From assembly GCF_003790525.1 (NCBI RefSeq), contig NZ_CP033635.1: DNA of 64,000 nucleotides; one strand, given 5' to 3'. Position numbers: made by a program. This DNA is from Escherichia coli (GTDB lineage: Bacteria > Pseudomonadota > Gammaproteobacteria > Enterobacterales > Enterobacteriaceae). Positions 24,001 to 27,000 of the stretch are shown piece by piece (within the stretch, counting starts at the first letter, position 1; each line of letters starts with the position of its first letter).

Positions 24001-27000
24001 CATGCAAATGAGGTGTGCCCTCCTTAAATTATCAATATCGTAAATTCCGCCACTATATTCAATCGCAACACGATGATATATGTGGAATTTTTTAACGATT
24101 TCTTTAGTGCCATAATGCCAACCTTCAAGTGGTGCTTTTGCGATTAATCCTTGTTTTATACGTGTTTGATTACCGCTTGAAAACTGCGCTATCAACTCCG
24201 GATACTGACTCACCTCCAGCCAAAGGGTATCGGTAAAAGCGGGAAAATGATAAAATAACCTAATGAGGCTTCAGTATTTTTACCTGTTTTTTAAGAGCAA
24301 TCACATTATTATTTTATGTCATTAATATCATCGCATTAGCCAGATGCGATGATGTTCCATATATAGTTTTATTATCTACTTTATTTAGAGTCTTTAAACA
24401 AGGGTAACCCCTGTGAACGCCGCCATTCTTTGACAATTTTCAGGATGTTTTCAGGCTTATCATCTCCTTGACTTTTAGGGTAGAAAATGAGATCGCTCCC
24501 TGACGGATGCTGTGTAATTTCAATAAAATGATCTACTAATGAATCCCAGTACATTTCTAGCTCCTTACCTTTTAAGGATTTCCCATCTTTCATAGATGAT
24601 CTCAATCCGCCTAAAAAATTAAGAAATTCATCCTCGGTATAATCCTGGAGCTTTTCTTTAAACATATTTATCTCCTGTAGTGAATCTCATCGTGTAGTCT
24701 GGGGGTAACAATTCGTAAATTATCAATATCGTATACGCTGCCGCCATATTCAATTGCAACACGATGATGTATCTGGAATTTTTTAACTATTTCTTTAGGG
24801 CCATAATGCCAACCGTCAATAGGTGCTTTTGCGGTTAATCCTTGTTTTATACGTGTTTGGTTACCACTTGAAAACTGCGCTATCAACTCCGGATCCTGAC
24901 TCACCTCCAGCCACAGCGCCTCGCGAAACTCATCAAAGGTTTTAAACTCCCGTCCGCGCAATTTATCAGCAATATGTGCCGGGATTGGTGCGCCGTTGCC
25001 GTTATTGGATACCGACATATCCAGCCAGCGAGTTCCTGGTGAAAGCGGGACGCCGCGCCCTGTTACAACACCAGGCAGCTTTCGCGGATCCTCCTTCAGG
25101 TAAACATAGATGGGCTTAATACCGGATCCCGCCGGAAAAACCAGAATATAATCGTTGAATTCTTTCGGATCAGGAACCGGGAATGGCGGCGTGCTATAGG
25201 TATCAGTGCCGTCCGGAATCGGCGTCACCAGAATGGTGGGCTGCTCCAGCGGCGGCCTGTCGTTACCGGTATGGCCCGGAACATTCCCATGTTCCGGATT
25301 TTCCGGCGTCCAGGTAATCAGGGGGCCATCGACATCGTGAGCGGGGGTAAATTCATAACGCTGCGTCTGCTCGTTCCACTGCATGTTCGCCACGCGGACG
25401 TTTTCATACGGCGTACCTTCACCCGTATGAACACCATACACCTGAGGCTTGCCGTGAATGTCAGTTCCCCAGAAAAAACGTACCCGGGTGGTGGCGGTAC
25501 TGCCTGCTAGTGCTTTCTGCTGCAGTTCTTCCTCATACCAGAACTCATCACGTCCGGGCACGCGAGCACTGCCCTCGCCCGCAGAGGGAATATACAAAGC
25601 AGATGCCAACGCACCGATGTAAGAGCCGCGGGTTGCACTGAGTATGCCACTGAGCGACCATTTTCCCCATATTTGAGCCGCCAATACGCTACCCGGAAAC
25701 AGTAGCATGGTTTGAGCTTCTGCGGGTTGCCCGACATCGTTAGCCTCGGGATGGTGGTATCCACAGCAGTCATCAACCACTGGCAGAGCAAAAATCGCTA
25801 CTTGCCCGAAGTTTTCAGCGGGTTCTTCTGCCGTTCCGGCATCTGTACATCCCTTCTCCTTCAGACAGGATTTGGCATAGACCGGTTTAACCGCTGGTGG
25901 AGAGAGTGGAAGGTTAACAACTGGTAGAGGCTCAGGGTTAAGATTACTGGCAGGTGGGTTTTTAGGTGGAATAAATAAGCTATTATGGCCAGCAGGAAAG
26001 GCCAACCAGTCAAATTCCGTATTGGCTATTAGATGTTTACATAATATGTAGTCATAATCGACAGTTACACATTCGGTAGGAAGATTATTGTCAGAAATGT
26101 TTACATGAATAGCAGTTAATGAAGCATTTCTTAGCTGAATATAATAATACCGTTCCCAGCGCCCGCTTTTATTTATACGATACAAATCGATTTCAATAAA
26201 TAACCGCTCATTCTGATTGATGGCATTAGACAGTAGCGGTGAGCTTTTATCAATGAGTTTGCAAAATTGTAGCCCCTGCAGATTAACGCCTTTACCAGTA
26301 CTGGTAATGGTGTTGGTGAGTGCAAAGGCAAAAATTTCATCTTCATGGCCAACCTGCCAGCGATTACCAACCGACGCATACGTCCCACAGCCTGAAGAAA
26401 TATCGCCCTGCTTCTCACCGATTATTCTCAGGTAAACAATATCGCCCACTTTATTTCATTCCAGTTTATCCTTAACTTATTTGCATTAAATAGAAAACTT
26501 ATTTCTCGATCAATTATAAACGCTTTTAATGAAAATTTATTTCTTTTACTTAACGTTTTCACTCATCTCGCAATATTATATTTAAATACTTACGTTACAA
26601 GCCCACCGCATTATTAACATCTATTTATTTTTATATGACCTTTTGTAAGATTATTGTGCTGGTGGCTAAGGCATGGTGTTCAGCAGGCAGACAAATCCGG
26701 CATATAGCTAGTTAAAACAGTATGTTATCAGACTTAAAGTATCTATTAAATGTGATGAAAAACTTACAATTGTTTTTTTTTTATCCAGAAAATCAACACA
26801 TCTACATAAAGCAGGTGCATTCTCGCGCACATACCATTATCTTGTGATAGTTAAAAGTAGCATTATCATAATTCAGTTACATGAAACGTAAAGAAATCAA
26901 TACAATAAACGGAATTGCAAACTTACACACGCATCACTGCGTAGATCAAAAAAACAATCACCGCACGAGGTTTCATGATGGAAGGTCAACAGCACGGCGA

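What the first reader, a model, noticed from the sequence alone, without database searches (positions are those of the whole stretch)
26450..26974. AT-rich 525-bp divergent region between the Hcp-DNase gene and aroP; toxin gene has a GTG start and weak ribosome-binding site
The fusion gene initiates at GTG (26449) with only a weak GGAA about 9 nt upstream, and the shared intergenic region with aroP is strongly AT-rich with long T and A runs. That is typical of horizontally acquired, possibly H-NS-silenced loci and suggests low basal expression, which would make sense for a nuclease effector. Part of this region must be the native aroP regulatory region, so the insertion may have displaced or altered aroP control sequences.
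Basis: partly seen in the sequence, partly recalled or inferred. Interest (0 to 1): 0.3.

Follow-up and report, generated by a model that had tools for sequence, protein, structure and literature searches.

The report
Known usp–aroP control region (PAIusp)
This AT-rich stretch is the already-studied control region between the E. coli toxin gene usp (an Hcp-DNase) and the amino-acid transporter gene aroP, where the imported toxin is driven by aroP's backward-facing promoter and kept low by the silencer protein H-NS, so the finding is real but not new.

Summary
Window 26450-26974 has 30.9% GC, the most AT-rich 525 bp in the 64-kb window. It contains a T10 and an A7 run. The 593-aa Hcp/Pyocin_S/DNase gene starts at GTG 26449, with only GGAA nine nt upstream.

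The locus is the small island PAIusp (usp plus three immunity genes) between aroP and pdhR. It is nearly identical to E. coli SMS-3-5 and present in 1054 of 5426 complete E. coli genomes. Its regulation was published by Rihtar et al. 2020 (PMC7142922). They showed that usp has no promoter of its own and is transcribed from aroP's divergent promoter P3. TyrR plus aromatic amino acids activates it and H-NS represses it.

I mapped these elements here:
- P3 -10 TGGTAT at 26836-26831.
- Strong TyrR box at 26887-26904.
- An inferred, unstructured leader of about 375 nt.

Three results go beyond the paper:
- The inserted DNA ends at about 26762.
- Segment 26763-26887, which holds the aroP P1/P3 core and the weak TyrR box, is an island-linked foreign allele. 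Its most diverged part (26837-26887) is 43% identical to K-12 and 67% to a Superficieibacter usp locus.
- Only 26888-26974 is resident E. coli sequence.

The best Shine-Dalgarno (AAGGAT) serves a two-codon mini-ORF ending one nt before the GTG. This suggests translational coupling, which is untested.

Verdict: already known, low interest.

The parts
24668..26449 (-). usp (also called Hcp-ET3-4, annotated tssD): 593-aa Hcp + S-type pyocin + colicin/pyocin DNase toxin
   Evidence: ORF. Pfam T6SS_HCP 6.6e-13, Pyocin_S 2.4e-40, Col-Pyo_DNase 6.2e-42. Same CDS in RefSeq. Named Usp / Hcp-ET3-4 in PMC7142922 and PMC6730261.
26447..26449 (-). GTG start codon of usp
   Evidence: Homologues start at the same codon. 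The 60 nt around it are at least 96.7% conserved in all 1054 usp+ genomes.
26459..26462 (-). GGAA, a weak Shine-Dalgarno-like element nine nt before the GTG
   Evidence: Anti-SD duplex -3.3 kcal/mol; coordinates.
26451..26459 (-). Two-codon mini-ORF ATG-AAA-TAA whose stop ends one nt before the GTG (function inferred, untested)
   Evidence: Same layout in the S. bongori primer sequence ATG-TCG-TAA-A-ATG. Two-codon uORFs overlapping the start in L003, L005 and L021; none in L012, L019, L023-L025.
26468..26473 (-). AAGGAT, the strongest SD in the 60 nt upstream of usp, placed for the mini-ORF ATG rather than the GTG
   Evidence: Anti-SD duplex -5.9 kcal/mol, with AAGGA nine nt before the mini-ORF ATG. 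In relatives lacking a uATG, AAGGA sits about 8-11 nt before the main start.
26450..26824 (-). Inferred 5' leader of usp (about 375 nt, 29% GC) from the P3 start to the GTG; the presumed H-NS-bound tract
   Evidence: P3 position taken from the -10 and -35 hexamers given in PMC7142922 and located. Fold z-score +0.6. No Rfam hit. The transcription start site was not mapped in any usp+ strain.
26450..26762 (.). Portion of the region that is inserted island DNA with no K-12 counterpart (28.8% GC)
   Evidence: Alignable with the Superficieibacter usp leader.
26506..26515 (+). TCGATCAATT, one mismatch from the H-NS high-affinity motif TCGATAAATT
   Evidence: 12 such sites in the window against 4.6 expected. 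The motif is recalled from the literature; binding was not tested here.
26763..26783 (+). Right copy of an imperfect 21-bp direct repeat at the island border (CTTACAATTGTTTTTTTTTTA); contains the T10 run
   Evidence: K-12 has one copy, TTTACAAACGGTTTCTTTTTA. Statistical support is weak.
22860..22880 (+). Left copy of the 21-bp repeat (TTTACCTATGTTTTCTTTTTA) at the pdhR-side border of the insert
26763..26887 (.). aroP-upstream DNA homologous to K-12 but carried as a strongly diverged, island-linked allele
   Evidence: Sub-segment 26837-26887 is 43% identical to K-12 and 67% to Superficieibacter. The allele is found in 1058 genomes against 1054 with usp.
26831..26836 (-). P3 -10 hexamer TGGTAT (the divergent aroP promoter that drives usp)
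   Evidence: Hexamer given in PMC7142922. Invariant in six aligned loci. Coordinates.
26856..26861 (-). P3 -35 hexamer, GCTACT in this allele (AGTACT in B2/UPEC), 19-nt spacer
   Evidence: The paper found -35 changes had no significant effect.
26842..26869 (+). Candidate aroP P1 core (TTGTGA-16-TATCAT); the K-12 equivalent is TTGATC-17-TAACAA
   Evidence: Consensus scan and alignment. Assigning it to P1 is my inference from 'P3 overlaps P1'; the Wang 1997 papers could not be read.
26864..26881 (+). Position of the weak TyrR box (TATCATAATTCAGTTACA; K-12 TGTAACAATTCAAACTTC)
   Evidence: Placed by alignment to K-12 and the 23-bp centre spacing from the strong box. Inferred.
26887..26904 (+). Strong TyrR box CGTAAAGAAATCAATACA (three mismatches to TGTAAA-N6-TTTACA; G2 and C17 kept)
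   Evidence: Conserved in all aligned loci. TyrR binding was shown for K-12 and S. bongori in the literature.
26865..26892 (-). Additional usp-directed promoter-like site TTTACG-16-TATGAT, mirror image of the P1 -10 (speculative)
   Evidence: The K-12 equivalent -10 is TGTTAC. The number of promoter-like sites is not above shuffles (4 against 3.1 +/- 1.9).
26888..26974 (+). Resident E. coli-type aroP 5' region (strong TyrR box, A7 run, SD GAGG 26967-26970)
   Evidence: 95-97% identical to K-12-type genomes, and the only part matched by megablast in 4363 island-free genomes. 96% to K-12 over 26888-26986.
26975..28348 (+). aroP (aromatic amino acid permease); the second ATG at 26978 is the conserved one
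22719..22880 (.). pdhR-distal spacer, a diverged homologue of the 180 bp that looked K-12-specific
   Evidence: Local alignment score 59 against 32.9 +/- 5.0 for shuffles, 0 of 200 reaching it. K-12 identity of 99% ends at 22718.

Best explanation
The 525 bp are the usp-aroP intergenic control region of the small island PAIusp. They work as described for the UPEC and S. bongori versions.

- The aroP-proximal third carries aroP's own promoters and two TyrR boxes.
- TyrR bound there with aromatic amino acids recruits RNA polymerase to the weak, backward-facing promoter P3 (-10 TGGTAT at 26836-26831).
- P3 transcribes through an unstructured leader of about 375 nt and 29% GC into usp and its immunity genes.
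- H-NS binds the AT-rich leader and keeps expression low, especially at low temperature.
- Translation starts at GTG 26449.

What is shown: the sequence identity of the elements, their positions and their conservation. What is inferred by homology: their function in this F-type allele, taken from experiments on a 93%-identical allele.

Structurally the region has three parts:
- 26450-26762 is inserted DNA.
- 26763-26887 is a donor-type allele of the conserved aroP upstream region that came in with the island.
- 26888-26974 is resident E. coli sequence.
For: - Locus identity. The gene order is pdhR, three immunity genes, usp, aroP. The region is 99.8% identical to SMS-3-5 and present in 1054 of 5426 genomes.
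- Published experiments on a 527-bp E. coli aroP-usp fragment and a 403-bp S. bongori one. A P3 -10 mutation lowers activity 2-3 fold. Phenylalanine activates 1.6-2 fold only in tyrR+ cells. An hns mutant shows higher lacZ activity and more Usp. EMSAs show TyrR and H-NS binding (PMC7142922).
- The paper's P3 hexamers and TyrR boxes are found here at the expected places. The P3 -10 is invariant across E. coli F and B2, K-12, Superficieibacter, UBA5654 and S. houtenae.
- This is the lowest-GC stretch of the window, and it holds an H-NS-like motif.
- The leader has no RNA family match and no excess structure.
Against: - No transcription start site has been mapped in any usp+ strain; P3 was assigned by analogy with K-12.
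- The P3 -10 mutation left about half the activity in E. coli, and the mutant primer itself creates a new -10-like TAATAT. 'Sole promoter' is therefore not proven.
- The H-NS EMSA used the S. bongori fragment, not E. coli.
- This allele differs from the tested one at 35 of 525 positions. The differences include the P3 -35 (GCTACT against AGTACT) and the last base of the strong TyrR box.
- The island-free K-12 spacer is also AT-rich (35% GC), so AT-richness is not specific to the insert.
Confidence: 0.85

Rival explanations
1. P3 is not the only, or not the main, usp promoter. Transcription would also start from a better sigma-70 site created by the island-linked allele: TTTACG-16-TATGAT on the minus strand (26892 to 26865). 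This site mirrors the aroP P1 -10 (a bidirectional promoter), and its -35 lies inside the strong TyrR box. Alternatively, transcription starts from spurious promoters in the AT-rich leader that H-NS normally silences.
For: - The site scores 9/12, and 10/12 in the B2 allele (TTTACA). The K-12 counterpart -10 is TGTTAC.
- P3 itself is poor: -35 GCTACT, 19-nt spacer, -10 TGGTAT.
- The P3 -10 mutation cut E. coli activity only 2-fold, and the -35 mutation had no effect.
- Several other promoter-like sites, including a perfect TATAAT at 26580-26575, lie in the leader.
Against: - The number of promoter-like sites does not exceed shuffles (4 against 3.1 +/- 1.9).
- A promoter with its -35 inside the strong TyrR box should be repressed by TyrR, yet TyrR plus Phe activates usp-lacZ.
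- An S. bongori fragment lacking both boxes, and therefore lacking this site, kept half the activity.
- The TATGAT is not conserved in Superficieibacter (TGTGCT) or S. houtenae.
Confidence: 0.25
2. The GTG and weak GGAA do not limit Usp synthesis. Ribosomes would load at the good SD AAGGAT (26473-26468) and start at the mini-ORF ATG (26459). They would translate Met-Lys, terminate at TAA, and re-initiate at the GTG one nt downstream. This is termination-reinitiation coupling.
For: - The strongest SD upstream of usp (-5.9 kcal/mol) is spaced for the mini-ORF ATG, not the GTG, whose own SD gives -3.3.
- Relatives without a uATG have AAGGA about 8-11 nt before the main start. The E. coli lineage looks as if about 10 nt were added between the SD and the start.
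- Two-codon uORFs ending at or overlapping the main start recur in S. bongori, L003, L005 and L021.
- The element is at least 96.7% conserved in 1054 genomes.
- The E. coli leader gave more Usp protein than the S. bongori leader despite about 20-fold lower promoter activity. The authors suggested 'more efficient translation'.
Against: - The uORF is absent from the closest non-E. coli relative, Superficieibacter (ATA instead of ATG), and from S. houtenae.
- The S. bongori uORF has no SD.
- An ATG within 12 nt upstream is not rare in AT-rich DNA, and the sampled loci are not independent.
- A/U-rich unstructured leaders can support initiation without a strong SD.
- There is no experimental test.
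Confidence: 0.2
3. Nothing here is special to the island. The AT-richness, homopolymer runs and divergent layout are simply the normal character of the enterobacterial aroP-pdhR spacer.
For: - The K-12 540-bp spacer is 35% GC, and the 180 bp that first looked K-12-specific are 30.6%.
- The T10 and A7 runs lie in K-12-homologous DNA; K-12 has TTTCTTTTTA and AAAAAAA there.
- P3 and the TyrR boxes exist in K-12.
Against: - 312 of the 525 bp (26450-26762) have no K-12 counterpart and are the most AT-rich part, at 28.8% GC.
- A further 51 bp are only 43% identical to K-12.
- The region is the AT extreme of the 64-kb window.
Confidence: 0.05

Closest known systems
PAIusp usp-aroP regulatory region of UPEC (TA211/UTI89) and S. 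bongori (Rihtar, Zgur Bertok & Podlesek 2020, PMC7142922)
   Same: - Same locus, gene order and intergenic length (525 against 527 bp).
- Same P3 -10 TGGTAT and the same placement of the TyrR boxes.
- Same GTG start context.
- 93.3% identity to the B2 allele.
   Different: - This is the phylogroup-F, SMS-3-5-type allele, found at 99% or more in about 23-28 genomes.
- P3 -35 is GCTACT rather than AGTACT, and the strong TyrR box ends in G rather than A.
- There are 35 substitutions in all.
- Function in this allele has not been tested.
aroP P1/P2/P3 - TyrR switch of E. coli K-12 (Wang, Yang, Pittard 1997-98; summarised in PMC3167631 and PMC7142922)
   Same: - Divergent overlapping promoters.
- A strong plus a weak TyrR box at the same distance from the aroP ATG.
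- A conserved P3 -10 and conserved downstream GAATGCACC-GCTTTATG.
   Different: - In K-12, P3 is transcriptionally unproductive and only represses P1. Here it reads into a toxin operon.
- The 51 bp between the strong box and the P3 -10 are 43% identical to K-12.
- The candidate P1 -10 is closer to consensus (TATCAT against TAACAA).
- The good half-site of the weak box has moved from one arm to the other.
H-NS xenogeneic silencing of AT-rich horizontally acquired genes
   Same: - About 29% GC against 51.5% for the window.
- An H-NS-like motif is present.
- There is published hns-mutant derepression and temperature dependence for usp.
   Different: - The silenced tract is mainly a transcribed leader downstream of a host-type promoter, not a foreign promoter.
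- The neighbouring native spacer is also AT-rich.
Hcp-ET (Hcp with extended toxin) T6SS effectors, Hcp-ET3-4 = UTI89_C0121 (Ma et al. 2017, via PMC6730261)
   Same: N-terminal Hcp, Pyocin_S and colicin-DNase domains, followed by three immunity genes.
   Different: This concerns the gene, not the intergenic finding. Regulation by a borrowed aroP promoter is specific to the aroP-linked loci. Related Hcp-ET genes sit in other contexts (L004, L005, L020, L021).
Two-codon minigenes and start-stop leader elements (lambda bar minigenes; termination-reinitiation coupling) - recalled from general knowledge
   Same: An SD-equipped ATG-NNN-stop immediately upstream of, or overlapping, a start codon.
   Different: No functional evidence exists here, and it is not conserved in all relatives.

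Membership tests
PAIusp (usp-imu island in the aroP-pdhR spacer) | Located between aroP and pdhR, with usp divergent from aroP | tested here: met
   Gene order. pdhR, aroP, ampE, ampD and nadC flank it as in SMS-3-5.
PAIusp (usp-imu island in the aroP-pdhR spacer) | usp encodes Hcp + S-type pyocin + colicin-type DNase domains (about 593 aa) | tested here: met
   Pfam hits for all three domains in a 593-aa protein.
PAIusp (usp-imu island in the aroP-pdhR spacer) | Three downstream colicin/pyocin-type immunity genes (imu1-3) | tested here: met
   Three PF01320 proteins at 24381-24665, 23683-23973 and 22984-23280.
PAIusp (usp-imu island in the aroP-pdhR spacer) | About 4 kb, low GC, no integrase or tRNA | tested here: met
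   Insert 22881-26762 is 3882 bp at 41% GC. No integrase-sized ORF. No tRNA scan was run.
TyrR-activated divergent aroP P3 promoter driving usp | P3 -10 TGGTAT at the conserved position, with the -35 19 nt upstream | tested here: met
   The -35 is GCTACT, one allele-specific variant.
TyrR-activated divergent aroP P3 promoter driving usp | Strong TyrR box (TGTAAA-N6-TTTACA, with G2 and C17) upstream of the P3 -35, and a weak box one further on the same face | tested here: met
   Strong box at 26887-26904 with three mismatches, G2 and C17 kept. The weak-box position at 26864-26881 has a poor match and was placed by alignment only.
TyrR-activated divergent aroP P3 promoter driving usp | Transcripts start at P3, and TyrR plus an aromatic amino acid raises usp expression | not testable with these tools
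   The literature shows this for the B2 allele and S. bongori using reporters. No start-site mapping exists in usp+ strains.
H-NS-silenced xenogeneic DNA | Marked AT-richness relative to the genome | tested here: met
   30.9% against 51.5% GC; 0.07% quantile.
H-NS-silenced xenogeneic DNA | High-affinity H-NS nucleation motif | tested here: inconclusive
   One site with one mismatch (TCGATCAATT). There are twelve such sites across the window.
H-NS-silenced xenogeneic DNA | H-NS occupancy and derepression in hns mutants | not testable with these tools
   Published for the E. coli TA211 allele (lacZ, Western) and for the S. bongori fragment (EMSA).
uORF-mediated translational coupling | SD at functional spacing before the uORF start, and a uORF stop within a few nt of the main start | tested here: met
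   AAGGA, then nine nt, then ATG-AAA-TAA-A-GTG.
uORF-mediated translational coupling | Conservation of the uORF across relatives | tested here: inconclusive
   A uATG within 15 nt upstream is present in 8 of 13 start contexts, which are not independent. It is absent in L012, L019, L023, L024 and L025.
uORF-mediated translational coupling | Main-ORF translation depends on uORF translation | not testable with these tools
   Needs mutated translational fusions or ribosome profiling.

The most novel reading that the evidence does not exclude
Two refinements together are the most novel reading the evidence leaves open.

(a) The island did not simply insert beside E. coli's aroP promoter and 'usurp' it. 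It arrived by homologous replacement, carrying a donor (Superficieibacter-like) allele of the aroP P1/P3 core and the weak TyrR box. The crossover lies at the strong TyrR box (26887/26888). On this reading, about 19% of E. coli express aroP from a xenologous promoter that co-evolved with the toxin.

(b) usp's GTG is translated mainly by re-initiation after an SD-driven two-codon mini-ORF, so the 'weak RBS' is only apparent.
Probability: 0.2. Interest if true: 0.3.

Novelty: already known. Interest (0 to 1): 0.12.

Why it matters
The region is a tidy, already published example of how a horizontally acquired toxin operon without its own promoter is wired into a host regulon (TyrR) and held down by H-NS.

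Confirming it here mainly removes the item from the list of unexplained features.

The small additions would matter to people studying three questions:
- Usp expression in ExPEC.
- How promoter-less islands spread between Enterobacteriaceae by flank recombination.
- Whether aroP regulation differs between usp+ and usp- E. coli.

Those additions are the exact insert borders, the foreign allele of the aroP promoter core strictly linked to the island, and the SD-equipped mini-ORF next to the GTG.

Tried and rejected
- **RNA family or structured leader (riboswitch or thermometer).** Rfam gave no hit at E<=1. Folding z-scores were +0.59 for the whole leader and +0.61 for the translation start region. 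Rejected.
- **Small conserved protein genes in the spacer.** The 40-46-aa ORFs at 26428-26562, 26708-26830, 26722-26847 and 26881-27021 lie outside the P3 transcript or are broken by indels in the Superficieibacter alignment. Not pursued.
- **An alternative in-frame start for usp.** None is possible upstream because of an in-frame TGA. Downstream starts would truncate the conserved M-x-D-I-x-Y-L N-terminus. The historical 346-aa Usp model (PMC3685522) uses an internal ATG and omits the Hcp domain.
- **The idea that K-12 holds 180 bp of unique sequence replaced by the island.** First suggested by BLAST. Rejected after sensitive alignment showed it is a diverged homologue of window 22727-22880.
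- **The 21-bp border repeat as a firm att or target duplication.** The left-right similarity is not significant on its own (26 of 300 shuffles). Kept only as a note.
- **Reading the original aroP promoter papers** (PMC179240, PMC179241, PMC107600). They are not held, so the P1 and P2 hexamers are my inference.
- **The genome-contig scan.** It did not return S. bongori or S. salamae. The S. bongori start context was taken from the primer sequences in the paper.
- **The homologue search with the N-terminal 170 aa.** It returned only partial proteins. These were usable for start contexts but not for full-length comparison.
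Full report
**1. Observation**

Window 26450-26974 lies between a minus-strand ORF, 24668-26449 (593 aa, GTG start), and plus-strand aroP, which starts at 26975.
- The stretch has 30.9% GC against 51.5% for the window. Only 0.07% of 525-bp windows are as low, and the window minimum (30.3%) starts at 26433.
- It holds a T10 run (26773-26782) and an A7 run (26948-26954).
- The GTG is preceded by GGAA nine nt upstream, with an anti-SD duplex of -3.3 kcal/mol. A crude median for 50 long ORFs of the window is -4.0.
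- An in-frame TGA four codons upstream excludes a longer ORF. RefSeq uses the same start in two strains. Relatives in other genera begin at the same codon with M-[SG]-D-[IL]-[IV]-Y-L.

The description is therefore correct.

**2. What the locus is**

- The 525 bp are 99.8% identical to E. coli SMS-3-5. The full region occurs in 1054 of 5426 complete E. coli genomes, and the common B2 allele is 93.3% identical.
- The toxin has Hcp, Pyocin_S and colicin/pyocin DNase domains. It is followed by three colicin-type immunity genes.
- A literature search identified this as the pathogenicity islet PAIusp. The toxin is Usp, also called Hcp-ET3-4 or UTI89_C0121.

Rihtar, Zgur Bertok and Podlesek (2020, PMC7142922) studied exactly this spacer: a 527-bp fragment from UPEC TA211 and a 403-bp fragment from S. 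bongori. Their results were as follows.
- They found no consensus promoter near usp and tested aroP's divergent promoter P3.
- Mutating the P3 -10 (TGGTAT) lowered reporter activity 2-fold in E. coli and 3-fold in S. bongori. Mutating the -35 had no effect.
- Phenylalanine raised expression 1.6-2 fold, and only in tyrR+ cells.
- An hns mutant showed higher usp-lacZ activity and more Usp protein, and it lost most of the temperature dependence.
- EMSAs showed TyrR and H-NS binding to the S. bongori fragment.
- Urea induced expression independently of TyrR.

**3. Mapping the published elements onto the window**

On the usp (minus) strand:
- P3 -10 TGGTAT is at 26836-26831.
- The P3 -35 is at 26861-26856, after a 19-nt spacer. 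It is GCTACT here, AGTACT in B2 as the paper states, and AAGACT in K-12.
- A start about 7 nt downstream of the -10 gives a leader of about 375 nt (26824-26450, 29% GC).

On the plus strand:
- The strong TyrR box is at 26887-26904 (CGTAAAGAAATCAATACA). It has three mismatches to the consensus, but G2 and C17 are kept.
- The weak-box position is 26864-26881.

A plus-strand TTGTGA-16-TATCAT site (26842-26869) is the likely aroP P1. This assignment is my inference, because the 1997-98 primary papers were not available.

The P3 -10 and the following GAATGCACC-GCTTTATG are conserved in E. coli F and B2, K-12, Superficieibacter, an Enterobacteriaceae MAG and S. enterica houtenae.

The leader matches no Rfam family and folds no better than shuffles, with z-scores of +0.59 and +0.61. 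It contains one near-match to the H-NS motif, at 26506-26515.

**4. Which part is native**

- BLAST against K-12 showed 99% identity on the pdhR side up to 22718. On the aroP side, homology runs from 26805 onward.
- More sensitive alignment showed that the 180 bp of K-12 that appeared unique are a diverged homologue of window 22727-22880. The score was 59 against 32.9 +/- 5.0 for shuffles, with 0 of 200 reaching it.
- K-12 homology on the aroP side reaches back to about 26763.
- The inserted DNA proper is therefore 22881-26762 (3882 bp).
- It is bordered by an imperfect 21-bp repeat, at 22860-22880 and 26763-26783. K-12 has a single copy. The evidence for this repeat is weak.

- 26450-26762 is insert.
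- 26763-26887 is homologous to K-12 but strongly diverged.
- 26888-26974 is 95-97% identical to K-12-type genomes.

The break is sharp.

| Segment | Identity to K-12 | Identity to Superficieibacter usp locus |
|---|---|---|
| 26837-26887 | 43% | 67% |
| 26888-26986 | 96% | 67% |

The diverged allele (query 26805-26910) is found in 1058 genomes, against 1054 that carry the usp start.

I conclude that the transferred unit was about 22719-26887. It brought its own version of the aroP P1/P3 core and the weak TyrR box, with the crossover at the strong TyrR box.

This refines the published picture of a resident P3 'usurped' and then mutated.

**5. The start codon and RBS**

- GTG with a weak GGAA is real but unremarkable by itself.
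- The strongest SD in the 60 nt upstream, AAGGAT (26473-26468, -5.9 kcal/mol), sits nine nt before an ATG at 26459. That ATG opens a two-codon mini-ORF, ATG-AAA-TAA, ending one nt before the GTG.
- Relatives that lack an upstream ATG have AAGGA about 8-11 nt before the main start.
- S. bongori has ATG-TCG-TAA-A-ATG, known from primer sequences. L003, L005 and L021 have two-codon uORFs overlapping the start.
- Superficieibacter, S. houtenae and three others have none.
- In the paper, the E. coli leader produced more Usp protein than the S. bongori leader despite about 20-fold lower promoter activity. The authors suggested more efficient translation.

Termination-reinitiation coupling is thus a plausible but untested explanation. 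I put it at about 0.2.

**6. Rival for transcription**

The island-linked allele also creates TTTACG-16-TATGAT on the usp strand (26892-26865). This mirrors the P1 -10, and the K-12 counterpart is TGTTAC.
- In favour: the published P3 -10 mutant retained half the activity, and its primer creates a new TAATAT. A second promoter therefore cannot be excluded.
- Against: the number of promoter-like sites is not above chance. TyrR should repress rather than activate such a site. The hexamer is not conserved outside E. coli.

**7. Verdict**

The feature is real. Novelty is 'already known' and interest is low.

The refinements are modest and need experiments. They are the exact borders, the imported aroP promoter allele, the mini-ORF, and the possible second promoter.

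Noticed in passing
window 23328-24213 (ORFs 23974-24213 and 23328-23516, minus strand): Between the three immunity genes lie two truncated ORFs of 79 and 62 aa. Both match only the C-terminal half of the colicin/pyocin DNase domain (profile positions 54-112). These are orphan toxin-tip plus immunity modules, like those behind Rhs and CDI loci. Off-diagonal BLAST hits show the modules of about 690 bp are shifted by one unit between this F-type island and the B2 island of ATCC 25922.
   Followed up: partly
window 22860-22880 and 26763-26783: An imperfect 21-bp direct repeat (16 of 21 identical) borders the 3882-bp insert. K-12 has one copy (TTTACAAACGGTTTCTTTTTA) at the empty site. It could be a target duplication or an old att-like site, but it is T-rich and statistically weak.
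   Followed up: partly
window 26975-26980: aroP begins with two adjacent ATGs. Only the second (26978) is conserved in B2 E. coli, Superficieibacter and UBA5654. The SD GAGG (26967-26970) is 7 nt from it but only 4 nt from the first. The true start is probably 26978, which would make the spacer 528 bp.
   Followed up: partly
E. coli complete genomes: Four genomes carry the island-linked aroP promoter allele (query 26805-26910) but gave no hit to the usp start region. They may be island-loss or disrupted derivatives. They were not identified.
   Followed up: no
loci L004, L005, L020, L021, L023: Hcp-ET genes with Hcp domains 59-86% identical to Usp sit in other genomic contexts: after an MFS/ProP-like transporter, a thiQ-like ABC ATPase, or acetyltransferase genes. 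The aroP-pdhR site is therefore not the only home of this toxin family. The Citrobacter copy (L004) carries an in-frame stop early in the Hcp domain.
   Followed up: no
window 26655-26715: A locally GC-richer block (GCTGGTGGCTAAGGCATGGTGTTCAGCAGGCAGACAAATCCGGCATATAGCTAG) in the middle of the AT-rich leader is recognisably conserved in the Superficieibacter leader. No structure or function could be assigned.
   Followed up: partly
window 21440-30000 against ATCC 25922: Divergence between the F-type and B2-type haplotypes falls with distance from the island: usp 94.4%, spacer 93.3%, aroP 96.7%, ampE 98.7%. This is consistent with old or separately recombined island haplotypes.
   Followed up: no
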